Source: Xylanibacter ruminicola 23 (GTDB taxonomy: Bacteria > Bacteroidota > Bacteroidia > Bacteroidales > Bacteroidaceae). From it: a stretch of DNA of 32,000 bases. The position numbers and the translations under genes were made by a program. Location: contig NC_014033.1 in the NCBI RefSeq assembly GCF_000025925.1, positions 1,140,001 to 1,172,000 of the forward strand, read 5' to 3'. Below the pieces are notes generated by a model that did no database searches, had not been told where the DNA came from, and saw only the letters and a program-made list of their open reading frames with translations. Shown piece after piece: positions 7,555 to 32,000 of this stretch (positions within the stretch are counted from its first letter, which is position 1; each line of letters starts with the position of its first letter).

Positions 7555-7567
7555 TAATCTTAAAGTA

Positions 7568-7630: not shown

Positions 7631-7633
7631 TCA

Positions 7634-12966: not shown

Positions 12967-12993
12967 GAGAAATAAAGTCCAAAACAACGATAC

Positions 12994-14454: not shown

Positions 14455-14460
14455 ACAGAT

Positions 14461-14592: not shown

Positions 14593-14598
14593 TTTTTT
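14565..14598 (+). terminator. bidirectional intrinsic terminator between the convergent lipoprotein operon and the uvrD-like gene
   Basis: 8-bp stem agagcgac / gtcgctct (14565-14572 / 14583-14590) followed by TTTTTT at 14593-14598. Confidence 0.6.
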
Positions 14599-14614
14599 AT
14601 GCTTGGCGTAAGCC

Positions 14615-17080: not shown

Positions 17081-17120
17081 AAAAAAGCCGAAAGCAAAAA
17101 AACTTTCGGCTCTATTTTTT
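17081..17120 (-). terminator. strong intrinsic terminator after the M15 peptidase gene, at the core/accessory boundary
   Basis: 9-bp stem agccgaaag / ctttcggct (17086-17094 / 17103-17111) with an 8-nt loop. T-runs follow on both strands. Confidence 0.7.
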
Positions 17121-17571: not shown

Positions 17572-17606
17572 AATGTTTAATGTTTAATATTTAATGTTTA
17601 ACGTTT
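17572..17606 (+). repeat. heptanucleotide array E: (AATRTTT)5
   Basis: Units read aatgttt aatgttt aatattt aatgttt aacgttt. The array starts directly after the M15 start codon (17571) and contains the TAA stop of the upstream 789-aa ORF (17598-17600). Confidence 0.85.
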
Positions 17607-19967: not shown

Positions 19968-20335
19968 TTACTAAATCCTTTCTTTTGCAGGTGTTTAATG
20001 ATGGGGCAAATACCCTTTCGCAGGATGGTTGGTAACTGGGCGCGCAGTTCGTTAGGTACCACAAATGTTACGCGATCGTTGCCATCAGCACCAAACGACA
20101 AACTGGCGTAATCTCCTTTAAATTCAGGCTTATGGCGTAATCGTTTGGTTCTCACAAACTCAAATGATCCGTTGGTCAACAATTGACCTAATCCACGACC
20201 ACGAAAAGCCTCCACTTGTCCTATACTCGGATTATCTGGCAGGAACTGCACATAATCCATTTCCAAATCACTCTTTGTAACGGCCATCATGCCGTTAACA
20301 GTTACGGTCTTGTTTAATTTGTTACTTGTTTTCAT
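19964..20335 (-). CDS. hypothetical protein
   Basis: I placed the start at ATG 20333-20335 (MKTSNKLNK..), because the track start at 20407 is a GTG in the upstream spacer. An ATGA overlap joins it to the downstream 789-aa ORF. Confidence 0.55.
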   Translation of the reverse strand: MKTSNKLNKTVTVNGMMAVTKSDLEMDYVQFLPDNPSIGQVEAFRGRGLGQLLTNGSFEFVRTKRLRHKPEFKGDYASLSFGADGNDRVTFVVPNELRAQLPTILRKGICPIIKHLQKKGFSK

Positions 20336-20490
20336 TTTGTTTTTGAGTTTTAAAGCGAGAAGAAGTTTCGGATTCCTTGGCCATTTACTCGAGAATATCC
20401 TCCTCACGTCAACTCAAATAACTAGTAAAATATGAAATAAGGAATGTTTTAATCTTTTAATCGTTTCTTTAGTACGCTTGCCTAAGCAAG

Positions 20491-20539
20491 AATCTTTAAT
20501 GTTTAATCTTTAATGTTTAATGTTCAACGTTTAATCTTG
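20491..20539 (+). repeat. heptanucleotide array F: (AATSTTT)7, partly degenerate
   Basis: Units read aatcttt aatgttt aatcttt aatgttt aatgttc aacgttt aatcttg. The array overlaps the last codons and TGA stop of the DUF3127-like ORF (20524-20526). Confidence 0.85.
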
Positions 20540-20805
20540 CAAATCTCGTTCGCAACAACGTCCATAAACGCTTGTCCATTGTACTCGCGAGTTTGGAATC
20601 GCAAATCAGCAACCACCAGTTCGTTCTCAGCAAACTCTATGGTGGCCAGGTTACCAAGTGTTGTAACCACATAGCTGTTAGCATATTTGCCACCAAGTTC
20701 CTGTAACACTAAGGTTCGCTTGTTCAGCACACCATTCTCACTTTTCTCACTCTGCACGGTAGTCATCACTCCGCACTTTTTTACTCTTAAAATCATTGTG
20801 TTCAT
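20524..20805 (-). CDS. DUF3127-like small OB-fold-type protein
   Basis: I placed the start at ATG 20803-20805 (MNTMILRVKK..). The C-terminal ..ADLRFQTREYNGQAFMDVVANEI resembles the ..RE(W/Y)NG(R/K).. signature I recall for DUF3127. Confidence 0.5.
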   Translation of the reverse strand: MNTMILRVKKCGVMTTVQSEKSENGVLNKRTLVLQELGGKYANSYVVTTLGNLATIEFAENELVVADLRFQTREYNGQAFMDVVANEICKIKR

Positions 20806-20863
20806 AATTCTTTTACTTTTTAAGTTGTTAAACAAATTGTTACATTTTATCATTTTTACATTT

Positions 20864-21025
20864 TTAAAATTCCAAATAAATGCTTCCGTATTTAGCTTGG
20901 AACTCTTTTCTGATTTCCTCGATACTTTTTCGAGTAATGCGATATCCGCGATCATACGCTTGCTGCTCCTCAGCTCTCACGTTAGCCAGATACAGCAGAT
21001 ATTCTTTTCGTTTAATCCCAGCCAT
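20864..21025 (-). CDS. possible 53-aa hypothetical protein (not in the ORF track)
   Basis: ATG 21023-21025 to TAA 20864-20866 gives MAGIKRKEYLLYLANVRAEEQQAYDRGYRITRKSIEEIRKEFQAKYGSIYLEF. It overlaps the Rha ORF stop by 14 nt. It has a helical, protein-like composition but no homology evidence. Confidence 0.3.
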   Translation of the reverse strand: MAGIKRKEYLLYLANVRAEEQQAYDRGYRITRKSIEEIRKEFQAKYGSIYLEF

Positions 21026-21719
21026 GACCGTTTTCAATCAGGTTAGTTATAAAATCGCGACCTTTCTCAGTCCAAACCAGATAGGTTTCGTATTTCAGCT
21101 TGCCTTTCAGCGAGTAACTCACATTCAATCGATCGGCCGTCAGCCCTAACCCTTCGTACTTGGGTAGTAGTCGGTACTGTCCGCATCGCCATCGTTGAAT
21201 CTTCATGTCAACCAGAAACGAGTTCAGGTCGTGCGCTGTCATGTTGTAAACGGCAGCAATCTCCGAAACCGTCAAGCAGCCGTCGCTCTCCTCGTTCACC
21301 TCATCCAGCTGCTCGCCTACTATCTCTTCCGACTCGTGCAGCACCTCTTGCTTGGTGGTAAGCAATCGCATCGACTGGTGTTGTGCCAGTCGTTCCATTT
21401 CCAACTGTTCCCATCGCAGCACCAACTTTGCTCGCATCTCATCGTCATACTTAGTGGCGACATAGAGACACTCGGTTTTGGTGAGCGAATAGCATGGCTT
21501 TAAACGTCCACGCAAATCCTTATACTCAATGAGTCCAAACTTGGACCCATTAACTTTTTCCCACGCAGGCTCCATACTTCTAATGTCGCGCAATACGTGA
21601 TTGTGTTGTTTCCCGCAAATCTCCGCTATTTCCAGCGACGTCATGTGCTGCTGGTTATACTGAGCATGCATGCGGGTTGTAAAACTTGAAGTTGTTTTTG
21701 AAATTGTAATTGTATTCAT
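21012..21719 (-). CDS. Rha-family phage regulatory protein with C-terminal KilAC/antirepressor-like domain
   Basis: 235 aa. MTSLEIAEICGKQHNHVLRDIRSM is the Phage_pRha signature. The C-terminal LTVSEIAAVYNMTAHDLNSFLVDMKIQ..YEGLGL is ANT/KilAC-like. Confidence 0.75.
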   Translation of the reverse strand: MNTITISKTTSSFTTRMHAQYNQQHMTSLEIAEICGKQHNHVLRDIRSMEPAWEKVNGSKFGLIEYKDLRGRLKPCYSLTKTECLYVATKYDDEMRAKLVLRWEQLEMERLAQHQSMRLLTTKQEVLHESEEIVGEQLDEVNEESDGCLTVSEIAAVYNMTAHDLNSFLVDMKIQRWRCGQYRLLPKYEGLGLTADRLNVSYSLKGKLKYETYLVWTEKGRDFITNLIENGHGWD

Positions 21720-21859
21720 AATCTTTAAAATTTTAAATTGTTATTGTTTAATAATGTACGTGCGCCTCTGTGCGCACATGTGCGTATATATACGCCATTT
21801 TATCGCCCTCCGCCGTTCGGAAGGTGAATGTTGTACCAGCATGTCAAAGATCACGTCGG

Positions 21860-21867
21860 CAAAGGTA
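21860..21867 (-). promoter_or_regulatory. -7 promoter box TAccTTTG upstream of the Rha gene
   Basis: Plus-strand caaaggta is tacctttg on the minus strand, 141 nt upstream of ATG 21719 and adjacent to the repeat cluster. Confidence 0.4.
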
Positions 21868-21870
21868 GAG

Positions 21871-22021
21871 TTCAACTATTCAACTCAAAAATTAATTTCA
21901 GTTGAGTTTTCAGTTGAACGGACAAAAATGCCCGCAAACGCCTTTGTTTACAGGCACGAAAAAAACAAAAAAAAATTCTACCAACATTCCAGTTGAATGC
22001 CAGTAGAACTTTTCAGTTGAA
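21871..22021. promoter_or_regulatory. cluster of AGTTGAA / TTCAACT iteron-like repeats
   Basis: ttcaact occurs at 21871-21877 and 21879-21885. tttcagttga occurs at 21896-21905, 21908-21917 and 22011-22020. ttccagttgaa occurs at 21987-21997, and a degenerate copy at 22000-22009. Confidence 0.5.
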
Positions 22022-22035
22022 TTTTAAGGCTTAAA

Positions 22036-23337
22036 TCAGTCTTTCACATAGTTGACAATCCAGTCAGCAATATCCCCTTTCTTACCCCTACCCATATACA
22101 CGGCAAAGGTTTTACTATCTGTGTTATCATCGCCCACGATAGCCGATGCAATACCCAAGTCGCTGCCTTGTATTACGCCAGCCCTTTTCAGACCATACAC
22201 TACAGCAGCCTTCAGTTGGGGCCGCTTGCTGGCTATTTGCCATTCGTCAGCTATAACGCTACCTATCTTCGATTTCATCAGACTGCTCACCAGCTCATCA
22301 CGCCACATGGTAGAATATTTCTCCTTATCAACCGAAACCGCATCAAACCAATCCTGCTGCAGCATTCGGCTGATGGTATTATAAGGTGCAAACAGGGTTG
22401 TATTCTCCAACGTTCCTGTTTGTGTAGGTTGTAGCACATTTACAAGTTCTGGGTTCAATCGGGCCATCTCCTTGTGTATCAGGTACAGCTTCATGTCGAG
22501 TTCAAAGATGGCTTGCAGCTGCGTATCGCTAAAGTCGTAGTAATGATTTTGGATGTATTTCCCGTATTTCTTGTAGTCGATAATAAGTATGGTGTCGTTC
22601 CAATGTATAAACTGCCGCCACTGGGCACATGCTACACAAAAATCGTCACTCATCACAAAATCATAAGGCAGAAATCCCTTCAGATAGTCGAGCCTAACCT
22701 CGTTCAATTCTTTCTGCGACGGCACAGGCGCAAAATTCATAATACCTTTTGTTAGCGATTCGGCTACCACTTTGGCCTGCAGTTCTCTCAGTTTGTCGAT
22801 GGTTACACACAGGTTCTCGTACCGCCATTTCTCAAATCTCTTCGATATCGCATCGCCGCTGTAGTTCTGCTTTTTGGCAAAATAGAATTTCTCAAACATG
22901 GCAGAATCGCAATGCATCAACGCTTTCTCAGCCTCAGCCAATAGCGTTTTCAGGTCTTCGATGTAGCATTTCAGACTCTCGTAAAAGCTTTCACCTTCCA
23001 TGTCGCTACAGATTCTTTCACACCACAGCCAGAACAATTCTTCGCGACGCAACCCTGACGAGATGCTGAACGCCTCCATGCACTTACCACGTTTCAGGTC
23101 TTCGATATACCCCGGTAGTAACTTCACGGCACCCTTCAGTTGTCGCATAAAGAACCGAGCAACAAAGGCTCTAATTCTACTGTTTTCAATAGATACCACA
23201 CAATATTGGCTGGCTATTTCCCTGGCAAGGTTGAGGTAATTTTTTAAACTTGGCAGGTAGTCAAGGGGCGCTCCGCAGCCAGCAGCCGAAGCTGCCCCAA
23301 GTTGAGCTCTTTCAAGCTCATTGTTGATAGTTTCCAT
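22036..23337 (-). CDS. hypothetical protein (433 aa), no recognisable motifs
   Basis: Long uninterrupted ORF with normal amino-acid composition and its own upstream TAnnTTTG box. I recognise no catalytic or binding motif. Confidence 0.7.
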   Translation of the reverse strand: METINNELERAQLGAASAAGCGAPLDYLPSLKNYLNLAREIASQYCVVSIENSRIRAFVARFFMRQLKGAVKLLPGYIEDLKRGKCMEAFSISSGLRREELFWLWCERICSDMEGESFYESLKCYIEDLKTLLAEAEKALMHCDSAMFEKFYFAKKQNYSGDAISKRFEKWRYENLCVTIDKLRELQAKVVAESLTKGIMNFAPVPSQKELNEVRLDYLKGFLPYDFVMSDDFCVACAQWRQFIHWNDTILIIDYKKYGKYIQNHYYDFSDTQLQAIFELDMKLYLIHKEMARLNPELVNVLQPTQTGTLENTTLFAPYNTISRMLQQDWFDAVSVDKEKYSTMWRDELVSSLMKSKIGSVIADEWQIASKRPQLKAAVVYGLKRAGVIQGSDLGIASAIVGDDNTDSKTFAVYMGRGKKGDIADWIVNYVKD

Positions 23338-23756: not shown

Positions 23757-23806
23757 AGCTTACCCCGCTTCCCGTAGAACAGCGCGCTTAGGGTGAGCCT
23801 TTTTTA
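23757..23806 (+). terminator. terminator-like hairpin plus U-run in the Abi leader (possible attenuator or tiny RNA)
   Basis: agcttaccc (23757-23765) pairs with gggtgagc (23791-23798): 8 bp including one G-T. An inner cgct/agcg stem is present. TTTTTT at 23800-23805 lies 11 nt before the ATG. Confidence 0.35.
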
Positions 23807-23816
23807 TTATTTAATC

Positions 23817-24713
23817 ATGAACAAAGTACCATATCCCAAACATATTCAGACGTTTGCTAATCAAATTAGCATTCTTAAGCAGCGTGGTTTGTCTATAAAC
23901 GACGAAGAGGAAACAGAAAAATGGCTCCGTAAAGTCAGTTACTATCGCATGAGCGGTTACTGGTATCCACTTTTGGAAGATAGACAGAATCACATCTTTA
24001 AACCAGGTAGCACTTTTGAGCAGGCAAAGATGCTTTATGAATTCGATAGCCATCTGCGTCGTATAGTGCTCTCTGCTATTGAGCGTATCGAAATTGCTAT
24101 TCGCACCCAAATGGCCTACGTTATGTCTCAAGCTCATGATGGTTACTGGTTTACTGATGTCGATCTATTTACAAATTCGTCACAGCATGCCAAGACGCTT
24201 GCCAGTATTCACGATGAGTTTCACCGTAGTGACGAACAGTTTGTAAAGTCGTTCAGACGAAAATACAGCAATCCATTGCCTCCCAGTTGGATAACACTCG
24301 AAATCACATCATTTGGAACAATGTCTATCCTTTATCAGAATCTTAAACCTGGACGTTCTAAGCGTGATGTGGCAGCCGCCTTTGGAGTTAGCGATACAGT
24401 ATTCGTCTCATGGCTCCACACTTTGGTTTACGTCCGTAACATCTGTGCCCATCACGCACGCCTTTGGAACAGAACTTTGGGTGTGCGCCCCCTGATGCCA
24501 CGTCAACCTCGTAACACCTTTATTCCGCAACCAGCCTCAGGAACACAACGTACCTATTTCGTACTTGCCATCATCCGCTATTGGCTCAACCTTATCGAGC
24601 CATCCAACAAGTTGCCACAAGATCTTATTCAACTTTTTTCTCTCTATCCAAGTGTTTACCCCGGTGCTCTCGGATTCCCCCAATCTTGGCAGCAGGAAGC
24701 TTTGTGGAAGTAG
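23817..24713 (+). CDS. Abi_2 (AbiD/AbiF-like) abortive-infection family protein
   Basis: I placed the start at ATG 23817 (MNKVPYPK..), because the track start 23793 is a GTG inside the leader hairpin. VSYYRMSGYWYPL.., LYEFDSHLRRIVL..IERIEIAIRT and VRNICAHHARLWNR are Abi_2 family hallmarks. Confidence 0.85.
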   Translation: MNKVPYPKHIQTFANQISILKQRGLSINDEEETEKWLRKVSYYRMSGYWYPLLEDRQNHIFKPGSTFEQAKMLYEFDSHLRRIVLSAIERIEIAIRTQMAYVMSQAHDGYWFTDVDLFTNSSQHAKTLASIHDEFHRSDEQFVKSFRRKYSNPLPPSWITLEITSFGTMSILYQNLKPGRSKRDVAAAFGVSDTVFVSWLHTLVYVRNICAHHARLWNRTLGVRPLMPRQPRNTFIPQPASGTQRTYFVLAIIRYWLNLIEPSNKLPQDLIQLFSLYPSVYPGALGFPQSWQQEALWK

Positions 24714-24839: not shown

Positions 24840-26084
24840 TCACTCAAAAGCCTTAATGACCTCTTCGTATTTCTTTATCCAGTAGGCCCCTCGTTGTTCC
24901 TGAAGACTCAACAATAACGACTTATTAAACACCTTGCCTTTCGTTTCATCCAAAGGTTTTTCTAAATGGATAAGCCAATATGTATTGTCGCGTGTGGGTT
25001 TATAGTCAGAAGTATGTGATGCCATTTCTGCAACTTGCTCTCGAGTTCTAACCTGCGGTTTCAAACCTGATATACGGCATAGTTGTGCTTTCTTCGAATC
25101 CTTTCCCAGAAACGCCAATACATATTCTGCACCAAGCAACTTTGGCATTGATAACACCTTACTAATGGGCAATATATAGTTTTTTGATTTTTCAAACCAC
25201 TCCCATTGCTCATCAGAACCAATTCGGCCAACAAGCACATGATGAGGTTGTTCTGCTTGGATTGCACCATTGAAGTCAACCAGCACCATTTCTTTATATG
25301 CCTGGCAAATCTCTTTATTTTCTAATTCCTCACGACGTTTAGCAGCAAGTTCAAGAAAAGATTTTTCTATATCAATGCCCAGATACTTTCTACCAAGTAA
25401 CGATGCAGCGACGCCTGTTGTACCACTTCCATTAAATGGATCTAACACCCAGTCACCTTCTTTTGTGGATGCCATAATGATTCGAGCCAATAAACTCAAA
25501 GGCTTCTGTGTAGGATGCTTTCCACACGATTTTTCCCATTTTGATACAGCTGGCATTCGCCACACATCAGTCATCTGTTTGCCGTCGTTCAACTGTCGCA
25601 TCAGTTCATAGTTGTAACGATGCTGTGCCTTTTTCGATTTCTTGGCCCAAATAATGTACTCTGCAGAATGCTTGAATACTCGATGAGAAACGTTATCAGG
25701 TGGATCTGTCTTATTCCACGTCACCACATTAAGAATCTTAAACCCCAGTTCAGATAACTGCTCCGCTACAGAAAAGATGTTATGGTGTGTACCGCTAATC
25801 CAAATGGTACCATTATCCTTCAACTTATCTTTACAGGCTGATAACCATTTGTGATTAAACTCATCGATATATTCTGACGAAGGCGCTTTGTCCCACGCAC
25901 CTTTATCCACGCATACGACCTTACCATTACTTACACTAATACCACCATTACTCAGAAAGTAAGGAGGATCGGCAAATATCATATCAAACTTAAAGTCGAA
26001 CGCATTAAGCACCGACACACAATCACCCTCAACGAGGGTAAAATCTTTATTGGTTGAACGGTAATATGGTATGATTGTAGTCAT
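24840..26084 (-). CDS. beta-class DNA methyltransferase (DPPY, probably N6-adenine) with ~140-aa C-terminal extension of unknown function
   Basis: 414 aa. Motif IV FADPPY (aa ~38) precedes motif I DPFNGSGTT (aa ~215), which is beta-class order. KHPTQKPLSLL is typical of the N4/N6 MTase family. Residues ~270-414 have no motif I recognise. Confidence 0.9.
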   Translation of the reverse strand: MTTIIPYYRSTNKDFTLVEGDCVSVLNAFDFKFDMIFADPPYFLSNGGISVSNGKVVCVDKGAWDKAPSSEYIDEFNHKWLSACKDKLKDNGTIWISGTHHNIFSVAEQLSELGFKILNVVTWNKTDPPDNVSHRVFKHSAEYIIWAKKSKKAQHRYNYELMRQLNDGKQMTDVWRMPAVSKWEKSCGKHPTQKPLSLLARIIMASTKEGDWVLDPFNGSGTTGVAASLLGRKYLGIDIEKSFLELAAKRREELENKEICQAYKEMVLVDFNGAIQAEQPHHVLVGRIGSDEQWEWFEKSKNYILPISKVLSMPKLLGAEYVLAFLGKDSKKAQLCRISGLKPQVRTREQVAEMASHTSDYKPTRDNTYWLIHLEKPLDETKGKVFNKSLLLSLQEQRGAYWIKKYEEVIKAFE

Positions 26085-27502
26085 TATTGTTTTGATATTA
26101 TTTCTGATAGTTTGCTATTAATCTCCTCATCGCTTCGTTTGAATATAGTCGCAAGAACTTCTACAGAACATTGTTTCTCTTCATACAAAGTCTTCAGCAA
26201 TTCCAAATCCTTTTCAGACCATTGGTTATTGTTCTTACCAATTTCCCTATGAGAACCAACTATAAGCTGCATTTCGTCTGTTCCTTCAGAGAAATTACGT
26301 TCTTTCTGCACTCCCATTGGTGATTGTCCAGAACCGCTTCTACGAGTTGTAATATGTGAATCACCTTTGAAACACTTTTCCCAATCACGTTCTGAATTAG
26401 GAAGACCAAATTGAAAATGCAAACCGACATTATCCAAGATTAGGCAAATACTTTTTCCTGCAGTTGGACGCAACCCACGCCCCACCTGTTGTAAATACTT
26501 TACTAGCGATTTTGTAGGGCGAGCTAATTGTATAAACTCAATATCAGGACAATCAAATCCTTCCGAGAAAATATCCACATTAACAATTATATCTATCAAT
26601 CCCTTTTTGAATCGGTCAACATAGAGTTTGCGTTCATCTTTAGGAGTTTTGCTATCTATTCGCACAATATTTATACCTGCTTCACGATATTCCTGGCAGA
26701 TATGGTCACTATGTTTTCTGCTAATAGAATAGATAATACCTTTCTTGCCCTTGGCATATTTAAGATAGCTATCCAATAATTGTGCTCGGATTCGAGTCGT
26801 GTCTATTTTTTTCTCCAGCGCAGAAATTTTATAATCACCTTCTACATCAAATTCAGTGATAGAATTTATCTCCTTTTGGATTTCGCTGTTTATACTAATT
26901 GAGTAATAATCATATGGTGCTAACCATCCCGCATCAATAAAACTTTGTATAGATTGTGAAATGATGATTCTATCAAATACTCTTTCAAAGCCACCATTAT
27001 TCATTCGCCAAGGAGTAGCGGTAACGCCTAATTTCTTGGCATTTGGATACATATCCCAAAGTTTTTTATAAGAATTGGCTACGCAATGATGAGCCTCATC
27101 TACGATAATATAGTTGACATTCAAGTCACCGGCAACATCTAAATTGTTACGATGTGTAATAGTTTGTACTGATGCCACTTGTACAGGGTATCTCAAATCG
27201 CGTTGCTTTCCTCCTGCAATTATGCCATGTGAAACTTTGTATCGTTCCAAATTCTCACTAATTTGATCAATCAGTTCTATGCGATGTGCAATGATCAGAA
27301 TCTTAACATCCTCATCATTTTGTACACCCCAAGTTTTTATATCACTGATGATAGATGAGAACAGACGAGTTTTACCGGTACCAGTTGGCATCTGAAACAT
27401 AACTGCGTCACACTCGTCCCATGCTAAGAAGATAGCCTCCTTTGCTTGTTGCTGATAGGGACGCAGCGAATTATCTATTCTCGAAATATCCTTGTAGTTC
27501 AT
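26084..27502 (-). CDS. SF2 DEAD/DEAH-box helicase (ResIII / COG1061-like) with C-terminal Myb/SANT-like tail
   Basis: 472 aa. It has LRPYQ, MPTGTGKT, VDEAHH, VTATP and QQVGRGLR. The tail is WSEKDLELLKTLYEEKQCSVEVLATIFKRSDEEINSKL. A 1-nt TAATG overlap joins it to the downstream MTase. Confidence 0.9.
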   Translation of the reverse strand: MNYKDISRIDNSLRPYQQQAKEAIFLAWDECDAVMFQMPTGTGKTRLFSSIISDIKTWGVQNDEDVKILIIAHRIELIDQISENLERYKVSHGIIAGGKQRDLRYPVQVASVQTITHRNNLDVAGDLNVNYIIVDEAHHCVANSYKKLWDMYPNAKKLGVTATPWRMNNGGFERVFDRIIISQSIQSFIDAGWLAPYDYYSISINSEIQKEINSITEFDVEGDYKISALEKKIDTTRIRAQLLDSYLKYAKGKKGIIYSISRKHSDHICQEYREAGINIVRIDSKTPKDERKLYVDRFKKGLIDIIVNVDIFSEGFDCPDIEFIQLARPTKSLVKYLQQVGRGLRPTAGKSICLILDNVGLHFQFGLPNSERDWEKCFKGDSHITTRRSGSGQSPMGVQKERNFSEGTDEMQLIVGSHREIGKNNNQWSEKDLELLKTLYEEKQCSVEVLATIFKRSDEEINSKLSEIISKQ

Positions 27503-29796
27503 TCTGCATCAATGAAGTTAGCCAAATGAGTATTGATGAGTTCCAAACGATTCAAATCTGAACGTGTTAATGCAGAAGATTTCTTTCCCTTCGGCTCGCT
27601 AATTAGCGTCATCCAATTAAGTTTGTCTTTCTTGGATTTGAATGCAAGCCCGATGTTAATAGCGAATACTTCTTCGAACTCCTGATAGCTAAAATTTTTA
27701 TCAATCACGTCGCGGTATTCGGATACCTCCAAGTAATCTTTCCAATCATATTCAGACAGGTCGAAATCATCGTTGTCACCATATTCCTTTATTATTCTAC
27801 CTTCAACAGAATTCTTTAGAACAGCCACGTTGTTCAACCATTTAGCACCATACACCATTTCTAACCTAGCAAAGAGAAGCGTTCTAAGCTGTTTTCTTAT
27901 ATCAGCTTTACGATCTGCGCCTTCTTGCTGTAAAGATTGGTCTTGTGTTTCTTTCCATTCTACCAATTCTTCTGGTGCATATTCGGGGAACTTTTTATTG
28001 ATTATATTCTGATAAGAACGAAGCCAAAAAGTATCGGCACCTTGTCCCAACACTCCTTTAATAATACGATTATCTTCATCAGAAAGATTGTTGAGACTAT
28101 TAGCCAAATGTTGAATGTACGGTTCTATTGCTGCGATTCTATCAGGAATAGACGATTGTGGATTTATTGCGTTTATCTTGATAAGATATGTATGCAGAGA
28201 TCCTAATAGTGCAATAAATGCAAAAGTGGCACGGTTAGAGAAAAGGTAGTCTTGTTTCACTTCTTCAGTCATAATAGAGTCAGCTATAGCATAGCCTCCA
28301 TCAATGAACTTTGTGATTCTTGCACGAGAATCCTTCATCGCCTTATCTATATCCGTCTCGTTTGTATTGTAAATGCAGACATCCGTATCACCTGTCCATT
28401 GAGTTGATGTCGCTTTAGGTATTAACCCAGATCGACCTAATGCTGTGTCAAACGGTTTGAATGCCAACAATGAGGAGTCCTCTCCTACTGAAATCTTATT
28501 ATATAGAACATGATTTGAATTGGCAGCCAACGCTTTTATGCAGGATGAACGTAATGCTTTCATTCTAGAGTCCAAACGGGATGATTTCCAATAAAGATCT
28601 TCTTCTAAGTCTAAGCGAAGACTCGGACTTACAGCTTTCTGGTTCTCGTTAATCTCCATAAATATTTTTAACTGTTCTTCCGATTCCATACTTTCAAAAG
28701 CCACCACGGGAATTGTGCTATCCTCTTTATGCAGAGACTGGGCATATCCATATACACGATGCTGACCATCAATGATATAGGCAATACCATAGGCGTTTGG
28801 AATGCGGAGGAATCCAAATTCAGATTGAGAGTCTTTCTGAGCCTTAATGGGGGTAAACTTTACTTTCAAATCCTCCTTTACGGCACTAAAATTGATAATA
28901 ATGGAATTTGGGAAATAACCACCACCATCAATAAACTTAGTAATACCTTTCAGACGTGAAGGTACAAGAAGGCGCTGATAGGTCGGTGCCATCGAATCGT
29001 TAACACGTGTTCTATGTAACACAAATCCTATTTTTAGCAATGTACTGGGTTCTATGGAGAATATATAATAGTTACGTTCTCCCATTTTACCTCTCAATAC
29101 AGGTATCTTTATAACCTCATCGTTGATCAGTTCATCCTTAAACATCAAACCATAGAACTGGTAGATAACAGATTCCTTGTATGACTTGATAAGGTTATTG
29201 ATGTAATTAAAAGAATTATCATTCAGATGGAATATTCCTGCATTAGCCATACGAGCTATATCTTCATCGTTTACGCGATAATTGCGTGATGCGAACAGAA
29301 ATTTTACACGTTTATCTTTTCCATATATTTGTTGCAATGTTTTAGCAACGCCATCCATATACAACTCCATTTTGTTGAGTTCCGTTTTAAAACTATGGCT
29401 TACTGCTGTTTGAGCAGCCTTACATTCTACAACAAATATAGCATCATCTCCTACGGCAACAACATCAAGTTGCAGAGTATCTTCTTTGTTAGCCCCCCAT
29501 TGAACCACGAGTTTTTCGTCACCATTTAAGATGCGGAATCCAAGTTTATAGAACATACACCACACATCATCTTCAAACTGCACACCATGATCCTTTTTGC
29601 GAGTCATCGTTGTTTTGCGGGCAGAAGAACGCACTACAGAATAACCCATCTTCTCGTAGTCTTCAACTTCATTGTGAGGCCTACTGATAGTATCAAACTC
29701 TGTGTTCTTTGCCTTGAATTTAATTTTCAAAGCATCTTCCTCGCACATCATATGCGACTTGATTTTTTCCACTTGTAGTTCTGTCAGATGTTCCAT
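27499..29796 (-). CDS. PD-(D/E)xK nuclease-like domain fused to a DGQHR (DndB-like, ParB/Srx-fold) domain
   Basis: 765 aa. The N-domain has FEDDV..LQLDVVAVGDDAIFVVECK (ECK encoded at 29419-29427). The central domain has YYIFSIEPSTLLKIGFV, FPNSIIIN, IIDGQHR (encoded at 28756-28770) and FMEINENQKAV. A long helical C-terminal region follows. An ATGA overlap joins it to the helicase gene. Confidence 0.85.
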   Translation of the reverse strand: MEHLTELQVEKIKSHMMCEEDALKIKFKAKNTEFDTISRPHNEVEDYEKMGYSVVRSSARKTTMTRKKDHGVQFEDDVWCMFYKLGFRILNGDEKLVVQWGANKEDTLQLDVVAVGDDAIFVVECKAAQTAVSHSFKTELNKMELYMDGVAKTLQQIYGKDKRVKFLFASRNYRVNDEDIARMANAGIFHLNDNSFNYINNLIKSYKESVIYQFYGLMFKDELINDEVIKIPVLRGKMGERNYYIFSIEPSTLLKIGFVLHRTRVNDSMAPTYQRLLVPSRLKGITKFIDGGGYFPNSIIINFSAVKEDLKVKFTPIKAQKDSQSEFGFLRIPNAYGIAYIIDGQHRVYGYAQSLHKEDSTIPVVAFESMESEEQLKIFMEINENQKAVSPSLRLDLEEDLYWKSSRLDSRMKALRSSCIKALAANSNHVLYNKISVGEDSSLLAFKPFDTALGRSGLIPKATSTQWTGDTDVCIYNTNETDIDKAMKDSRARITKFIDGGYAIADSIMTEEVKQDYLFSNRATFAFIALLGSLHTYLIKINAINPQSSIPDRIAAIEPYIQHLANSLNNLSDEDNRIIKGVLGQGADTFWLRSYQNIINKKFPEYAPEELVEWKETQDQSLQQEGADRKADIRKQLRTLLFARLEMVYGAKWLNNVAVLKNSVEGRIIKEYGDNDDFDLSEYDWKDYLEVSEYRDVIDKNFSYQEFEEVFAINIGLAFKSKKDKLNWMTLISEPKGKKSSALTRSDLNRLELINTHLANFIDAE

Positions 29797-29800
29797 ATCA

Positions 29801-30247
29801 TTAATATTTTGTATTCATTTCTTCAATAATCCTCCTACACCATTTCACAATATTATCAGATCTCCTCTCATATACAGTCTCACTATATCCGGGGTAGTAT
29901 TCTTTTGTTAGTTCCAATGCAAATGTCGAATGGTCTTCGTTAGGAAGTACATAGATTCTTGCAAAAATTTGTCCCATCAACTCATCTGATATTATTCTCG
30001 CATATATGCGTTCTGATATCTCTGCGGGATTGTTAGTAAATATATCTACAGCAAGAGTAGTTTTGCTCCAATCGTCATTAATTAGGTCAAGATATTTACA
30101 AGCATTTGTGTAGTAATCAGCTTGACGGAGTGTAAAACCGCAATAATCAGCCAGTTCCTGCTTACTACATCCAGGATGCATATAGATATACATAAAGGTA
30201 TCTACCACCAAATCCAAATTATTTGCTTGAATTAAAACCTTTCCCAT
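29801..30247 (-). CDS. hypothetical 148-aa protein, possibly winged-helix (inference only)
   Basis: The ORF is packed 3 nt after the Dam stop and 4 nt before the DGQHR start. The segment CSKQELADYCGFTLRQADYYTNACKYLDLI looks HTH-like. No catalytic motifs are evident. Confidence 0.7.
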   Translation of the reverse strand: MGKVLIQANNLDLVVDTFMYIYMHPGCSKQELADYCGFTLRQADYYTNACKYLDLINDDWSKTTLAVDIFTNNPAEISERIYARIISDELMGQIFARIYVLPNEDHSTFALELTKEYYPGYSETVYERRSDNIVKWCRRIIEEMNTKY

Positions 30248-30250
30248 AGC

Positions 30251-31177
30251 TTAATACCTTCTGATGACGACTTCGGTTTGCTTCTTTCGTTTTTCAGGAT
30301 CTGCATTGATGAATCTCGTAGCGAGTACCCGATTAAGATTATACCCTTCGTATAGGTTTTCAAAATACGAATCTCCATTATCAGTTTTACTATCAGAATT
30401 ACTTAACATTATCAGGCAATTCCGATTATAAAGCCTATCGCAGAACACTTTCAATTCTTTCTGTTGTCTGTCATCAAACGGCTCGTTCGTATATTCCTTA
30501 AAAGACGATGTTTCGTTCAAAGGACGATAAGGAGGATCGAAATATACAAAGTTTGAATTATTTCTGCTGAGGTTATGACTTACTTGTTTATAATCTCCTG
30601 GCTTGCGAATCACCAAATCAACAGAATTAAGAAGCTGGTGATCGGCCATTATCAGTTCTTCGTTGCAGATGACGGGCTTCCTGTAACGTCCGTATGGAAC
30701 ATTGAATCTCCCTGCCGCGTTTACTCTGTGTAGCCCGTTAAAACATGTATGATTTAAGAATATGAATAACGCAGCCCTTTCGTCAGGATGTATTCCTTCG
30801 CTATTATACTGATCGCGATAGAAATAATACAAATCTCTTCTTTCTAGGAAATCCACTCTAAAGTAGTTATCTTCAATATTCCTCAATCTATCAATAAGTG
30901 TTTGAGGCTCGTTGGTAACCAATTGATAACAACGGATAAGATCTGCATTGATATCATTGATAACGGCCCGCTTGATACACTTATGGCGTTGCAGCATGTG
31001 AAATAGCATTGCGCCACCACCAACGAAGGGTTCTATGTAAGTTACATTTTCAAGATCGTCGAAATCAGTTGGGAGTAGTGCTTCCAACTGCTGAAGGAGA
31101 TTTCCTTTTCCGCCTGCCCATTTTACGAAAGGCTTGGGCGTGATGGCCTTTTTCTTTACTACCGTGTTTTGAGGCAT
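30251..31177 (-). CDS. Dam-family (alpha-class, D12) N6-adenine DNA methyltransferase
   Basis: 308 aa. It has KPFVKWAGGKGNLL, EPFVGGGAM (motif I) and FVYFDPPY (motif IV), in alpha-class order. Confidence 0.9.
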   Translation of the reverse strand: MPQNTVVKKKAITPKPFVKWAGGKGNLLQQLEALLPTDFDDLENVTYIEPFVGGGAMLFHMLQRHKCIKRAVINDINADLIRCYQLVTNEPQTLIDRLRNIEDNYFRVDFLERRDLYYFYRDQYNSEGIHPDERAALFIFLNHTCFNGLHRVNAAGRFNVPYGRYRKPVICNEELIMADHQLLNSVDLVIRKPGDYKQVSHNLSRNNSNFVYFDPPYRPLNETSSFKEYTNEPFDDRQQKELKVFCDRLYNRNCLIMLSNSDSKTDNGDSYFENLYEGYNLNRVLATRFINADPEKRKKQTEVVIRRY

Positions 31178-31556
31178 CGGTCAGTTTATGTTCTGACTGA
31201 TACCCGTTAGTCAGAGGGTTCATAGCTATTCAACGACAATATATACGAAAAAAACGGGGTATCCTCATCTGCCGTTCCCCATTTAGGCCGTCGGAAGCCC
31301 TCTCAAAAGAACAACAGAGTCTGAATACCCACGCTGGCCAATATACAATGCACCCAAAAGTGTGCGTGAGGGTATTAGCTACCCTCGCAGCACACTCCGG
31401 GATGTATATACAACCCGTCAGCATCCATCTCCGCTTTTGTCTTGATTTGAGATTTGAATTTCCGACGTTCAAATGGTCAAAACAAAGCATCAATGACGCT
31501 TAATCCGTAATGTCGTGTCTCAACCCACTATCCCGAAGGCGTGAGTACTGACGTTG
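31178..31556 (-). ncRNA. candidate structured non-coding leader or ncRNA upstream of the Dam-led operon
   Basis: There is no credible ORF, and the 87-aa track ORF is Cys/Trp/Arg-rich. The region is GC-richer than its flanks. A hairpin at 31360-31395 has 6+7 bp and a ttagc loop. A 7-bp hairpin at 31192-31215 sits 15 nt before the ATG. A weak GC stem plus a 7-U run lies at 31248-31280. Confidence 0.3.
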
Positions 31557-31564
31557 CAAAAGTA
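31557..31564 (-). promoter_or_regulatory. -7 promoter box TActTTTG pointing into the leader and Dam operon
   Basis: Plus-strand caaaagta is tacttttg on the minus strand, 380 nt upstream of the Dam ATG. No good -33 TTTG lies at the canonical spacing. Confidence 0.35.
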
Positions 31565-31647
31565 CAAAAAGTTTATGAGATTCCATCCAATTAAACAGAA
31601 AATATGCAATTTAATATGAATTTTGCTTTAAAAAGTGTGTCTATACA

Positions 31648-32000
31648 TTACCAAATACTCCCATCTACCATTTTCAGACCTTCGTACAAGTTCACGACCT
31701 GCTTGTAGTTTAGAAACTTGACTCGATTTTCGATAGGTGAAAACATGGATACGTGCAACTTGTCTTCATATTCTTTCTTACGGCTTGAATCTGCTACAAT
31801 GAAGAAACCGGCATTGAAATCCTGAAGCTCGTAAAACTTGGTTAATGAGTTCTTGATGTCAGTTGTATGTTCAACCTCGTAAAAATCGGATGGCATATTG
31901 CGTTCGTTAAACCAAATAACATCTATCGTACGTGCTCTACGCTTCAAATCATCATAAGTAAAGTCAGGTAGTTCAGTGGTATCCGTTATCTCTCCTAGCC
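31648..32000 (-). CDS. C-terminal part of a PD-(D/E)xK-like nuclease candidate (N-terminus beyond the window edge)
   Basis: The frame stays open upstream of the track start (a TTG at 31945-31947) to nt 32000: ..LGEITDTTELPDFTYDDLKRRARTIDVIWFNE..FYEVEHTTDIKNSL. D..EVEH resembles restriction-endonuclease-fold cores. The family is not identified. Confidence 0.55.
   Translation of the reverse strand, partial: LGEITDTTELPDFTYDDLKRRARTIDVIWFNERNMPSDFYEVEHTTDIKNSLTKFYELQDFNAGFFIVADSSRKKEYEDKLHVSMFSPIENRVKFLNYKQVVNLYEGLKMVDGSIW

What the first reader, a model, noticed from the sequence alone, without database searches (positions are those of the whole stretch)
24840..31177. Five-gene Dam / small protein / nuclease-DGQHR / SF2 helicase / beta-MTase operon: candidate undescribed modification-linked defence system
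Seen: five minus-strand ORFs run head to tail from 31177 to 24840. Their junctions are 3 nt (30248-30250), 4 nt (29797-29800), a 4-nt ATGA overlap (27499-27502) and a 1-nt TAATG overlap (26084). This is one translationally coupled operon. Its DNA is visibly more AT-rich than the housekeeping half of the window. It sits between an Abi_2 gene and another nuclease-like ORF. Motifs read directly from the translations are as follows. (1) An alpha-class Dam MTase (FVKWAGGK..FVYFDPPY). (2) A 148-aa protein without catalytic motifs. (3) An E..D..ECK nuclease signature fused to FPNSIIIN..IIDGQHR..FMEINENQKAV. (4) An SF2 helicase (RPYQ, PTGTGKT, DEAHH, TATP, QQVGRGLR). (5) A beta-class MTase (FADPPY before DPFNGSGTT) with an extra domain. 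Established: DGQHR domains are known from DndB of dnd phosphorothioation clusters and from DndB/ParB-like proteins of dpd 7-deazaguanine clusters. The related DGQQR motif occurs in DUF262 of GmrSD. None of the obligate partners of those or other named multi-gene systems is present here. Specifically, there is no dndACDE/dndFGH, sspABCD, tgt-like dpdA, hsdS/hsdR, PglZ/BrxC, or DUF1998/PLD of DISARM. Inference: the two MTases mark self DNA, and the nuclease-DGQHR protein plus the helicase form an ATP-dependent effector.
Basis: partly seen in the sequence, partly recalled or inferred. Interest (0 to 1): 0.9.

Follow-up and report, generated by a model that had tools for sequence, protein, structure and literature searches.

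The report
Dam-linked DGQHR nuclease restriction cassette
The five genes are real, but the conserved unit is a widespread, uncharacterised pair (a GATC-type Dam methylase plus a large nuclease with a ParB-like DGQHR domain); in this rumen Prevotella it carries an added helicase, a small DNA-binding protein and a second methylase, and most likely acts as an unusual restriction-modification system.

Summary
Observation confirmed. Five head-to-tail minus-strand ORFs, their junctions, motifs and low GC are as described. The window is from Xylanibacter (Prevotella) ruminicola 23.

Interpretation partly supported. The five genes are not one obligate unit. In 80 loci from many phyla, only a Dam-family methylase is broadly conserved next to the nuclease-DGQHR gene. 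It lies directly upstream on the same strand in 65 of 72 testable loci.

- The helicase occurs in one Bacteroidales-centred clade (21 of 69 testable loci).
- DUF7226 and the beta-methylase are patchier.

In five loci the DGQHR gene sits inside a classical dpnM / DpnII endonuclease / dpnA-type cassette. The window's beta-methylase is 57-59% identical to DpnA-type partners.

Best reading: a DpnII-style GATC restriction-modification cassette. Its endonuclease is replaced by a PD-(D/E)xK + ParB-fold (DGQHR) protein with a helical tail. Catalytic residues are kept in 66 of 69 members. In this lineage a coupled SF2 helicase assists.

The helicase clade has lost an RNxxxH (HEPN-like) motif that most two-gene versions keep.

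No named system matches in PADLOC, NCBIfam, Pfam or the literature searched. It is a new variant of a known kind. No function has been shown experimentally.

The parts
31178..31647 (-). Upstream region. It holds a Bacteroides-type -7 box (TAcTTTTG, about 31555), then a roughly 330-nt structured leader ending in a hairpin and T-run, and a second hairpin just before the Dam ATG. Tentative regulatory leader or small RNA.
   Evidence: Sequence read directly. The fold of 31225-31560(-) gives MFE -125.8 kcal/mol, z = -5.98, with 0 of 100 shuffles as stable. The region is 74-80% conserved upstream of Dam in L012, L013 and L014. No Rfam family matches. Only 1 compensatory pair was found with 4 sequences, so the structure is not proven.
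30251..31177 (-). Alpha-class Dam-family N6-adenine DNA methyltransferase (DpnM-like); presumed GATC self-marking enzyme.
   Evidence: PF02086 8e-53; TIGR00571 dam at 253 bits against a cut-off of 115; PADLOC MTase_II 2.5e-85. A Dam gene lies directly upstream of the DGQHR gene in 65 of 72 testable loci. All 51 partners tested match TIGR00571.
29801..30247 (-). DUF7226 protein (148 aa): N-terminal winged-helix plus a helical extension. Accessory DNA-binding or controller-type subunit.
   Evidence: PF23871 1.5e-13. AF2 model has pLDDT 94. Foldseek matches are weak overall; the best local match is the CggR DNA-binding domain (probability 0.99, TM 0.58 over 70 residues), with weaker MarR and MntR matches. 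It is present between Dam and the DGQHR gene in only a subset of loci.
27499..29796 (-). Core effector (765 aa). N-terminal PD-(D/E)xK nuclease (about aa 60-205, nt 29182-29619; E75, D111, E124, K126). ParB-fold DGQHR domain (about aa 230-441, nt 28474-29109). C-terminal helical domain (about aa 483-765, nt 27502-28350), which in this clade lacks the RNxxxH motif.
   Evidence: TIGR03187 at 119 bits (cut-off 59); DndB PF14072 1.6e-18; weak NERD and Card1 hits. AF2 pLDDT is 80. The nuclease domain matches Cdn1, Card1, AF1548 and EndoMS (probability 0.97-1.0, weak E-values). The E-D-E-K tetrad is intact in 66 of 69 members and DGQHR in 69 of 69. There are 407 clusters (at 50% identity) with E<=1e-30.
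26084..27502 (-). SF2 DEAH helicase (472 aa) with no nuclease domain; its start overlaps the DGQHR stop (ATGA). Clade-specific ATP-dependent partner.
   Evidence: ResIII 2e-29, Helicase_C 5e-18. Best PADLOC hits are the helicase regions of mREase_IV and PbeA; RadD scores 150 bits against a cut-off of 720. It is found in 21 of 69 loci with downstream sequence, and all of these fall in one clade of the DGQHR tree. The two helicase relatives whose contigs were looked up (66-72% identity, of 120 listed) lie in the same cassette.
24840..26084 (-). Beta-class N6-adenine methyltransferase of the DpnA/LlaDCHIB type (aa 1-260), plus a 155-aa C-terminal extension with no assigned family (nt 24843-25307).
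   Evidence: PF01555 4.5e-59. It is 59% identical over 258 aa to the beta-methylase of a Dam-DpnII-DGQHR-methylase cassette (L069). It is 57% identical to the second methylase of L. lactis pSRQ700, whose gene order is Dam, methylase, type II REase. The closest solved structure is CcrM, 2.9e-58. The extension has no Pfam hit and is absent from the 290-aa version in L093.
23793..24713 (+). AbiD/Abi_2 (a HEPN family) abortive-infection gene, convergent with the operon. It is a neighbour in the defence island, not a conserved member of the cassette.
   Evidence: PF07751 3e-60; PADLOC AbiD 1.4e-74. An Abi_2 gene is also adjacent in L075 and L080, but it is absent from the closest five-gene relatives.

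Best explanation
This is a restriction-modification cassette built on the DpnII/LlaDCHI (GATC) plan, with an unconventional endonuclease.

Proposed mechanism (inferred unless marked otherwise):
1. The alpha-class Dam and the DpnA-type beta-methylase put N6-methyladenine on the host's own GATC sites. By analogy with DpnA, the beta enzyme would cover incoming single-stranded DNA.
2. The 765-aa protein is the restriction component. Its PD-(D/E)xK domain cuts DNA that lacks the mark.
3. Its ParB-fold DGQHR domain acts as an NTP-binding switch or sensor, like the DUF262 domain of GmrSD, BrxU and SspE.
4. In the Bacteroidales clade a translationally coupled SF2 helicase supplies ATP-driven translocation or remodelling, much as the N protein does for CglI/NgoAVII or the Res motor for Type III enzymes.
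5. DUF7226, a winged-helix protein, is a controller or DNA-recognition accessory.

The ancestral and far more common form is only Dam plus the nuclease-DGQHR protein. Its tail carries an RNxxxH (HEPN-like) motif. The helicase-bearing clade, including this window, has lost that motif.

Shown here: the genes, the domains, conservation of the catalytic residues, the conserved Dam pairing, and the embedding in DpnII cassettes.

Inferred: GATC specificity, protection by methylation, DNA cleavage, NTP dependence, and the roles of the helicase and DUF7226.
For: - Dam lies immediately upstream on the same strand in 65 of 72 testable loci from at least 8 phyla. Most gaps are -34 to +77 nt.
- All 51 Dam partners tested match TIGR00571. 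The Dam lineage differs among close DGQHR relatives: about 100 bits to the window's Dam in L016, L017 and L019 against 278-579 bits in most other members of that clade. This suggests selection for the activity rather than simple co-inheritance.
- The two-gene cassette is inserted between unrelated housekeeping genes, such as the methylmalonyl-CoA mutase gene in L045; the two solo copies follow tyrS (L048) and folD (L065). This is typical of mobile Type II R-M units.
- The E-D-E-K nuclease tetrad is intact in 66 of 69 members and DGQHR in 69 of 69. The nuclease fold is supported by AF2 and Foldseek.
- Decay is asymmetric. The nuclease gene is split while Dam is intact in L047, L066, L078 and L094. 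It is also split in L057 and L060, where no adjacent Dam could be assessed. No locus has a split Dam beside an intact nuclease.
- In five loci the order is Dam, DpnII endonuclease (PF04556, 9e-96), DGQHR, beta-methylase. The window's beta-methylase is 57-59% identical to DpnA-type enzymes.
- GATC is depleted in the window (observed/expected 0.44, second lowest 4-mer palindrome) and in the flanks of related loci (median 0.60).
- The neighbours are defence genes: AbiD, AbiH, AbiC-like, Fic/RhuM, SLFN-like and T5orf172.
- DndB-like ParB-fold proteins bind ATP and GTP (bioRxiv 10.1101/2025.10.10.680097).
Against: - No experiment supports the reading. Methylation, cleavage and phage or plasmid restriction are all untested.
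- Where a DpnII endonuclease is already present, a second GATC endonuclease would be redundant. The DGQHR protein may therefore do something else.
- Nothing identifies a sequence-reading or methyl-reading element in the 765-aa protein.
- The DGQHR core was poorly modelled (pLDDT below 50 at residues 261-297, 344-354 and 382-389).
- Two loci have the nuclease gene with no adjacent Dam (L048, L065).
- GATC depletion is absent from high-GC Actinomycetota loci, and no control set without the cassette was analysed.
- DndB itself is a regulator, not a nuclease.
- The 80 loci were retrieved with one peptide pattern. Neighbour calling used a crude ORF caller on many metagenome-assembled genomes.
Confidence: 0.6

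Rival explanations
1. The DGQHR protein is a regulator or helper of methylation rather than a restriction enzyme. Like DndB or DpdB, it would use NTP binding to control expression or DNA loading of the Dam methylase. Any restriction would come from other nucleases, such as DpnII where present.
For: DndB is a transcriptional regulator of dnd genes and DpdB is an ATPase that assists base insertion (reviews read). Five loci already carry a DpnII endonuclease next to the DGQHR gene. A winged-helix protein (DUF7226) accompanies it in some loci.
Against: The PD-(D/E)xK catalytic tetrad is conserved in 66 of 69 members down to about 25-30% identity. Most cassettes are two-gene and contain no other nuclease. 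The nuclease gene, not Dam, is the one found broken. The DndB and DpdB equivalog models score far below their cut-offs.
Confidence: 0.12
2. It is a modification-dependent (Type IV-like) or modification-sensing nuclease in the manner of GmrSD, BrxU or SspE. It would attack DNA carrying foreign hypermodified bases, or be licensed by sensing the host's own m6A mark. Dam would supply the signal rather than simple protection.
For: The DGQHR domain is related to the DUF262 (DGQQR) NTPase domain of GmrSD-type enzymes (PMC4619093). COG1479-type ParB domains fused to PD-(D/E)xK, HNH or HEPN nucleases are linked to diverse DNA-modification systems (PMC3632139). From my own knowledge, SspE is stimulated by the host's phosphorothioate mark. 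Distant relatives sit beside a different putative modification module of radical SAM, short DGQHR protein and GHKL ATPase.
Against: Known Type IV enzymes are not tightly and translationally coupled to a methylase. Here coupling holds in 65 of 72 loci. There are no PADLOC hits to GmrSD, BrxU or SspE models. Embedding in DpnII cassettes and the decay pattern fit classical protection by methylation.
Confidence: 0.13
3. The pair is mainly an addiction or abortive-infection module. The HEPN-like tail (or, in this clade, the helicase-nuclease pair) kills or arrests the cell when methylation falters or when phage interferes. DNA restriction of invaders would be secondary.
For: An RNxxxH motif is invariant in the C-terminal domain of most two-gene members, and several sub-threshold hits fall on HEPN families. 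HEPN domains fused to R-M components and DndB are noted in PMC3632139. From my own knowledge, the HEPN anticodon nuclease PrrC is held in check by the EcoprrI R-M enzyme. HEPN genes neighbour motif-less loci: the window, L075, L080 and L090.
Against: The window protein lacks the motif altogether. The HEPN assignment is not significant: Pfam hits are below gathering scores, hhalign against Abi_2 gives probability 5%, and the best PDB hit, HepS, has E = 1.2. This reading does not exclude the R-M reading, since Type II R-M units are themselves addictive.
Confidence: 0.1

Closest known systems
DpnII / LlaDCHI / MboI-type GATC restriction-modification cassettes (dpnM, dpnA, dpnB)
   Same: An alpha-class Dam-family methylase plus a beta-class DpnA-type methylase in one operon. 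The window's beta enzyme is 57% identical to the second methylase of L. lactis pSRQ700. In five related loci the DGQHR gene lies inside a complete Dam-DpnII-methylase cassette. It is a small mobile cassette found in defence islands.
   Different: The window has no DpnII-family (PF04556) endonuclease. In its place are a 765-aa PD-(D/E)xK + DGQHR protein, an SF2 helicase and DUF7226. The beta-methylase carries an extra 155-aa domain. GATC specificity is inferred, not measured.
GmrSD / BrxU / SspE (ParB-fold DUF262 NTPase fused to a nuclease)
   Same: One polypeptide combines a ParB/Srx-fold NTP-binding domain (QR, DGQxR and FxxxN motifs; PMC4619093) with an endonuclease domain. All are linked to DNA-modification status and to defence islands.
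   Different: Those enzymes have DGQQR (DUF262) and a C-terminal HNH (DUF1524) nuclease, and they have no cognate methylase of their own. Here the motif is DGQHR, the nuclease is an N-terminal PD-(D/E)xK domain, and a Dam gene is almost always coupled. There are no PADLOC hits to their models.
DndB (dnd phosphorothioation) and DpdB (dpd 7-deazaguanine)
   Same: They share the DGQHR domain (TIGR03187 passed; PF14072 hit). DndB is described as ParB + HEPN (PMC3632139), which matches the domain order of the last two-thirds of this family.
   Different: The equivalog models fail by a wide margin: DndB 39 bits against 328, DpdB 58 against 300, DGQHR_dnd_1 75 against 450. No dndACDE, dpdA or other partners are present in the window. 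The added N-terminal nuclease is absent from DndB and DpdB. The partner here is an ordinary adenine methylase.
ATP-dependent restriction with a separate or fused SF2 motor: CglI/NgoAVII (R + N proteins), Type III Res, Type ISP, SauUSI
   Same: The window variant pairs a nuclease subunit with a DEAH SF2 helicase in an operon with methylases. The helicase's best PADLOC hits are the motor regions of Type IV mREase models and PbeA.
   Different: The helicase has no nuclease domain, so it is not a Res or SauUSI-type fusion. The nuclease subunit is unrelated to the PLD/B3 R proteins of CglI/NgoAVII (from my own knowledge). The helicase is dispensable for most of the family: 48 of 69 loci lack it.

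Membership tests
DGQHR domain superfamily (TIGR03187 / PF14072) | Score above the curated cut-off, with invariant QR, DGQHR and FxxxN motifs | tested here: met
   TIGR03187 scores 118.9 bits against a cut-off of 58.85. Y273-Q274-R275, D343-R347, F379 and N383 are invariant in 45 diverse members.
Dnd phosphorothioation system (DndB) | DndB equivalog score, and dndACDE (with or without dndFGH) neighbours | tested here: not met
   TIGR03233 scores 39 bits against a cut-off of 328. No Dnd proteins were found among the window ORFs scanned with Pfam (the operon and its flanks also with PADLOC and NCBIfam), nor among the conserved neighbours in 80 loci.
Dpd 7-deazaguanine system (DpdB) | DpdB equivalog score, with a dpdA (TGT-like) gene and dpdC-K neighbours | tested here: not met
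   NF041060 scores 57.8 bits against a cut-off of 300. The helicase matches only the C-terminal part of DpdF models, weakly. There is no TGT-like gene in the window.
GmrSD / BrxU / SspE Type IV-like enzymes | DUF262 (DGQQR) domain with a C-terminal DUF1524 HNH nuclease, and no cognate methylase | tested here: not met
   There are no Pfam or PADLOC hits to these models. The motif is DGQHR, the nuclease is an N-terminal PD-(D/E)xK domain, and a Dam gene is coupled in 65 of 72 loci.
DpnII-type GATC R-M cassette | Dam-family alpha methylase (DpnM-like) | tested here: met
   TIGR00571 scores 253 bits against a cut-off of 115.
DpnII-type GATC R-M cassette | Second, beta-class DpnA-type methylase | tested here: met
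   It is 57% identical to the second methylase of pSRQ700 (gene order Dam, methylase, type II REase) and 59% identical to the beta-methylase in the Dam-DpnII cassette of L069.
DpnII-type GATC R-M cassette | DpnII-family endonuclease (PF04556) | tested here: not met
   No window ORF matches PF04556. The gene is present in related loci L062, L066 (truncated), L069, L074 and L085.
DpnII-type GATC R-M cassette | m6A methylation of GATC, and cleavage of unmethylated GATC | not testable with these tools
   The only evidence is indirect: GATC observed/expected is 0.44 in the window and has a median of 0.60 in the flanks of related loci.
Restriction-modification system (generic) | A methylase and a nuclease with intact catalytic residues, inherited as a unit | tested here: met
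   Dam is adjacent in 65 of 72 loci. E-D-E-K is intact in 66 of 69 members. The nuclease gene is split beside an intact Dam in four loci (L047, L066, L078, L094) and never the reverse.
Type III R-M | Res subunit with the SF2 motor fused to a PD-(D/E)xK nuclease, and a Mod subunit carrying the target-recognition domain | tested here: not met
   The helicase is 472 aa with no nuclease domain. The beta-methylase hits MTase_III only weakly (1e-13) against 1e-95 for MTase_II.
Type I R-M | HsdS specificity subunit, HsdM and HsdR | tested here: not met
   There is no HsdS or HsdM. REase_I models match only the helicase core.
BREX / DISARM / MADS / PD-Lambda-5 | PglZ and BrxC; DrmA/B with DUF1998 and PLD; the mad gene set; PD-Lambda-5_A | tested here: not met
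   Only generic methylase or helicase-core hits were found: BrxHI 6.5e-6, mad2 3.6e-14 and PD-Lambda-5_B 3e-14. No signature proteins were detected.
HEPN domain (C-terminal tail of the family) | Rx4-6H motif in a helical domain, with significant similarity to a HEPN family | tested here: inconclusive
   R140, N141 and H145 are invariant in 23 motif-bearing tails. The motif is present in 37 of 47 helicase-less members and 0 of 22 in the helicase clade; it is deleted in the window protein. All Pfam hits are below gathering scores; the best is HEPN_Swt1 at 24.8 bits against 27.5. hhalign against Abi_2 gives probability 5%. The best PDB hit, HepS, has E = 1.2.

The most novel reading that the evidence does not exclude
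Dam + nuclease-DGQHR is a previously unrecognised, phylum-spanning class of restriction system. In it a ParB-fold NTP switch, rather than a conventional recognition domain, reads the methylation state of DNA and gates a PD-(D/E)xK DNase. In the ancestral form it would also gate a HEPN-type RNase, coupling restriction to abortive infection. In gut and rumen Bacteroidales the HEPN site would have been exchanged for an ATP-driven SF2 helicase. This would give a natural example of effector-module swapping within one defence family.
Probability: 0.3. Interest if true: 0.8.

Novelty: new variant of a known kind. Interest (0 to 1): 0.6.

Why it matters
- **Size of the family.** It is large and uncharacterised. 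There are 407 clusters (at 50% identity) with E<=1e-30. One gut Bacteroidales variant alone appears in 355 assembly blocks. Current annotation calls these proteins only 'DGQHR domain-containing protein' or, wrongly, 'DndB'.
- **New effector architecture.** If it is a restriction enzyme, it adds a ParB-fold NTP-binding domain to the repertoire of methylation-protected (Type I-III-like) restriction. So far that domain is known only from modification-dependent or phosphorothioate-sensing nucleases.
- **Practical use.** Prevotella and other Bacteroidales are hard to manipulate genetically. A GATC-directed barrier of this kind would predict that DNA from dam+ E. coli is protected and DNA from dam- donors or PCR products is not.
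- **Evolution of defence modules.** The contrast between the RNxxxH motif and the helicase gives a testable case of modular evolution in defence systems.

Tried and rejected
- **Rfam.** The whole window at gathering thresholds and the Dam leader at E<=1 gave nothing meaningful.
- **tRNA/tmRNA scan.** No genes found.
- **PDB sequence search.** The 765-aa protein gave no informative hit.
- **Foldseek with the whole 765-aa model.** Only the nuclease domain gave interpretable hits. The confident C-terminal helical domain had no match.
- **DUF7226.** tblastn against plasmids found nothing. The homologue search returned only stand-alone proteins of about 148 aa, so fusions gave no clue. The weak PADLOC hit to the C-terminus of a REase_II model could not be followed further.
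- **Phage collection.** Only short matches restricted to the DGQHR domain, so the family is not typically phage-borne.
- **Helicase homologue search.** The listing stopped at 65% identity. The two relatives looked up lie in the same cassette, so no independent context was learned.
- **Literature.** Searches for DGQHR, DUF7226, DndB-like, PF14072, DpnII+DndB and P. ruminicola 23 restriction found no description of the gene set. The 2005 paper on P. ruminicola 23 restriction systems is not held.
- **HEPN tests.** hhalign of the C-terminal profile against Abi_2 was negative. A profile search against PDB gave only HepS at E = 1.2.
- **Rejected readings.** Membership in Dnd, Dpd, GmrSD, Type I, Type III, BREX, DISARM, MADS or PD-Lambda-5 was considered and rejected (see the membership tests). 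The idea that all five genes form one obligate system was also rejected.

Full report
**1. What is in the window**

The operon has 36-41% GC, against 45-56% in the left half of the window.

Profile searches confirm every domain call.
- Dam-family alpha methylase: PF02086 8e-53; TIGR00571 253 bits, cut-off 115.
- A 148-aa DUF7226 protein.
- A 765-aa protein that passes the DGQHR domain model (TIGR03187, 119 bits, cut-off 59) and has weak NERD and Card1 nuclease hits at its N-terminus.
- A 472-aa SF2 helicase (ResIII + Helicase_C) without a nuclease domain.
- A beta-class N6_N4 methylase (4.5e-59) with an unassigned 155-aa C-terminal extension.

An AbiD/Abi_2 gene lies convergently downstream. 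An ORF with a weak REase-like hit runs off the right edge.

The proteins are identical to entries from Xylanibacter (Prevotella) ruminicola 23, where they are annotated only generically. The left half of the window is housekeeping: hisS, purA, fur, recQ, uvrD, and M49 peptidase, DUF4270 and Glyco_transf_5 genes. Positions 17.1-23.3 kb are phage-like or island DNA. No Dnd, Dpd, BREX, DISARM or Type I partner is present anywhere.

**2. The conserved unit is smaller than five genes**

The nuclease-DGQHR protein belongs to a large family.
- The indexed search found at least 3160 relatives.
- The exhaustive search found 407 clusters (at 50% identity) with E<=1e-30. The full architecture of about 765 aa is kept down to about 25% identity.

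I scanned one genome per species with a diverse alignment. They come from Bacteroidota, Actinomycetota, Bacillota (including Listeria portnoyi and Paenibacillus macerans), Pseudomonadota, Acidobacteriota, Patescibacteria and Campylobacterota.

I called ORFs in these loci, searched them with the window's proteins and clustered all neighbours. The recurrent neighbour families were:

| Neighbour | Loci (of 80) |
|---|---|
| Dam | 66 |
| SF2 helicase | 22 |
| Beta-methylase | 9 |
| DUF7226 | 6 |
| DpnII endonuclease family | 5 |

- **Dam adjacency.** Of 72 loci with at least 1 kb of upstream sequence, 65 have Dam on the same strand directly upstream. Most gaps are -34 to +77 nt. Larger gaps are explained by DUF7226 or DpnII lying in between.
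- **Exceptions.** Several of the seven exceptions are artefacts or variants: an overlapping call in L088, a divergent Dam in L081 and broken genes in L057 and L078. Only L048 and L065 are clean solo copies.
- **Dam family.** All 51 Dam partners tested match TIGR00571.
- **Helicase.** It occurs in 21 of 69 loci with downstream sequence, and all of these fall in one clade of the DGQHR tree (mostly Bacteroidales).
- **Five-gene order.** The full order recurs in close relatives (L008/L009, L012-L014). It also recurs at about 66% helicase identity in L093, there with a short beta-methylase.
- **Other variants in the same clade.** Some have Dam-DUF7226-DGQHR-helicase. Others have Dam-DGQHR-helicase followed by an HNH_2 protein.
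- **Insertion sites.** The two-gene cassette is found between unrelated housekeeping genes.

**3. Link to classical GATC restriction-modification**

In L062, L066, L069, L074 and L085 a gene between Dam (or the beta-methylase, in L062) and the DGQHR gene is a DpnII endonuclease (PF04556, 9.4e-96). Except in L062, where it lies upstream, a beta-methylase follows the DGQHR gene. In those loci the DGQHR gene therefore sits inside a dpnM/dpnB/dpnA-type cassette.

The catalytic part of the window's beta-methylase is 59% identical to the L069 enzyme. It is 57% identical to the second methylase of Lactococcus lactis pSRQ700, whose three genes are Dam, methylase and type II endonuclease. From my own knowledge this is the GATC-specific LlaDCHI system, a DpnII relative.

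Among solved structures the beta-methylase is closest to CcrM. Sequence alone therefore does not fix its specificity.

GATC is depleted in the window: 72 observed against 165 expected, ratio 0.44, second lowest after CTAG. It is also the second most depleted 4-mer palindrome in the flanks of 59 related loci (median 0.60). The ratio is about 1.0 in high-GC Actinomycetota, and I had no matched controls.

**4. Anatomy of the effector**

- **Catalytic and binding motifs.** Across 69 full-length members the PD-(D/E)xK tetrad E75-D111-E124-K126 is intact in 66 and DGQHR in all. Y273-Q274-R275, R281, H261, F379, N383 and Q386 are invariant in a 45-member alignment with 23-58% identity to the window protein.
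- **Structure.** An AlphaFold2 model (pLDDT 80) gives a confident N-terminal nuclease domain. Its best PDB matches are PD-(D/E)xK enzymes (Cdn1, Card1, AF1548, EndoMS, Hjc; probabilities up to 1.0 but weak E-values). The DGQHR core is poorly modelled. The C-terminal domain is confident and all-helical, with no PDB match.
- **RNxxxH motif.** In that tail, most helicase-less members carry W..(F)NSYRNxxAHEG, with R, N and H invariant. The motif is present in 37 of 47 helicase-less members and in none of the 22 members of the helicase clade. In the window protein the segment is deleted.
- **Is the tail HEPN?** Eight tails all give sub-threshold hits to HEPN-clan families at that position; the best is HEPN_Swt1, E = 2.8e-5, 24.8 bits against a gathering score of 27.5. 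The only PDB hit of the tail profile is the protein HepS, a HEPN protein to my knowledge, at E = 1.2. hhalign against a shallow Abi_2 profile is negative. Makarova et al. describe DndB as ParB + HEPN (PMC3632139). The HEPN reading is therefore plausible but unproven.
- **HEPN genes nearby.** Some motif-less loci have a HEPN gene next door: Abi_2 in the window, L075 and L080, and a HEPN_Swt1-SNF2 helicase fusion in L090. The window's closest relatives lack AbiD, so this is a weak pattern.
- **DUF7226.** It models at pLDDT 94 as a winged-helix domain plus a helical extension, with weak PDB support.

**5. Most likely mechanism**

The evidence points to restriction-modification logic with m6A, probably at GATC, as the self-mark and the PD-(D/E)xK domain as the restricting nuclease. 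It rests on:
- tight and near-universal coupling to a Dam-family methylase;
- replacement of one Dam lineage by another within the family;
- insertion as a small cassette between housekeeping genes;
- conserved catalytic residues;
- repeated decay of the nuclease gene beside an intact methylase (L047, L066, L078, L094) and never the reverse;
- defence-island neighbours.

The DGQHR domain most likely binds NTP. DndB-like proteins bind ATP and GTP (bioRxiv 10.1101/2025.10.10.680097). It would gate or relocate the enzyme, as DUF262 does in GmrSD-type nucleases. In the window's clade the helicase start overlaps the nuclease stop, which suggests a stoichiometric nuclease-motor complex. All biochemical steps are inferred. 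I put this reading at about 0.6.

Rivals:
- a DndB-like regulatory or helper role, favoured by the co-occurrence with DpnII;
- a modification-sensing, SspE-like or Type IV-like nuclease;
- a primarily abortive or addictive module that uses the HEPN-like site.

**6. Comparison with known systems, and novelty**

The DndB and DpdB equivalog models fail by large margins, and GmrSD, BrxU and SspE models do not hit. Type I, Type III, BREX, DISARM, MADS and PD-Lambda-5 signature proteins are absent. The cassette meets two of the three gene-content features of DpnII-type systems (both methylases) but lacks the DpnII endonuclease. No paper found describes a Dam-DGQHR-nuclease pairing. REBASE could not be consulted.

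I classify it as a new variant of a known kind: restriction-modification with a new endonuclease architecture and clade-specific accessories.

**7. Caveats**

- The 80 loci were retrieved through one peptide pattern around DGQHR and ranked by similarity, so more distant contexts are under-sampled.
- Relatives at 26-31% identity on alphaproteobacterial plasmids sit beside a different module.
- Many loci are metagenome-assembled genomes, so split genes may be assembly errors.
- My ORF calling was mechanical.
- The link between helicase gain and motif loss rests on essentially one evolutionary event.

Noticed in passing
window 31178-31647 (minus strand): The 470-bp gap upstream of Dam has a Bacteroides-type -7 box, then a leader of about 330 nt that folds far better than shuffles (z = -5.98). 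It ends in a hairpin and T-run, with another hairpin at the Dam start. It is 74-80% conserved in L012-L014, matches no Rfam family, and shows only one compensatory pair with four sequences. It may be an attenuator or small RNA controlling the operon.
   Followed up: partly
C-terminal domain of the family; window protein about aa 728-741 (nt about 27574-27615); loci L034-L091: A HEPN-like RNxxxH motif (W..FNSYRNxxAHEG) is invariant in most two-gene Dam-DGQHR systems. It is deleted or degenerate in the whole helicase-bearing clade (37 of 47 against 0 of 22). This suggests the helicase replaced an ancestral second catalytic site.
   Followed up: partly
L010 (Novosphingobium pNL1, NC_009426.1) and L011 (Agrobacterium sp. 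S7/73 plasmid): Relatives at 26-31% identity with the same nuclease-DGQHR architecture are not next to Dam. They sit beside a module with no curated family name: a short DGQHR protein, a radical SAM enzyme and a GHKL (HSP90-like) ATPase, plus a PIN-like + GHKL pair. This may be a different DNA-modification-linked system.
   Followed up: partly
L090 (Eubacteriales MAG) 7525-9135 and 12374-15937: Here the Dam-DGQHR pair (HEPN motif lost) is flanked by a NERD + SF1-helicase protein upstream and a 1187-aa HEPN_Swt1 + SNF2 helicase fusion downstream. This looks like an independent recruitment of helicase and HEPN functions in trans.
   Followed up: no
window 24843-25307 (aa 260-414 of the beta-methylase): The beta-methylase carries a 155-aa C-terminal extension with no Pfam hit. 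It is conserved in close relatives (414-419 aa) but absent from the 290-296-aa versions in L093 and the Flavobacteriia cassettes. Its function is unknown.
   Followed up: partly
window 31648-32000 (minus strand, runs off the edge): This is the C-terminal 116 aa of an ORF with a weak PADLOC REase_II hit (PDLC03534, 2e-6) and no Pfam hit. It may be part of a neighbouring restriction gene lying outside the window.
   Followed up: partly
window 17119-23337: A low-GC, phage-like block lies next to the cassette: an M15 peptidase, a 789-aa protein and a 147-aa protein without hits, a DUF3127 protein, a Rha/ANT antirepressor, and a 433-aa protein (22036-23337) with no Pfam, PADLOC or NCBIfam hit. No integrase or tRNA is in the window, so the island boundaries are unresolved.
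   Followed up: partly
L001, L016, L017 (e.g. L001:12762-13601): In one sub-branch of the helicase clade a 279-aa HNH_2 endonuclease-like protein directly follows the helicase, in place of DUF7226 and the beta-methylase.
   Followed up: no
whole window and flanks of L012-L091: GATC is strongly under-represented: observed/expected 0.44 in the window and a median of 0.60 in 59 loci, second only to CTAG. It is not depleted in high-GC Actinomycetota hosts. No control genomes were analysed.
   Followed up: partly
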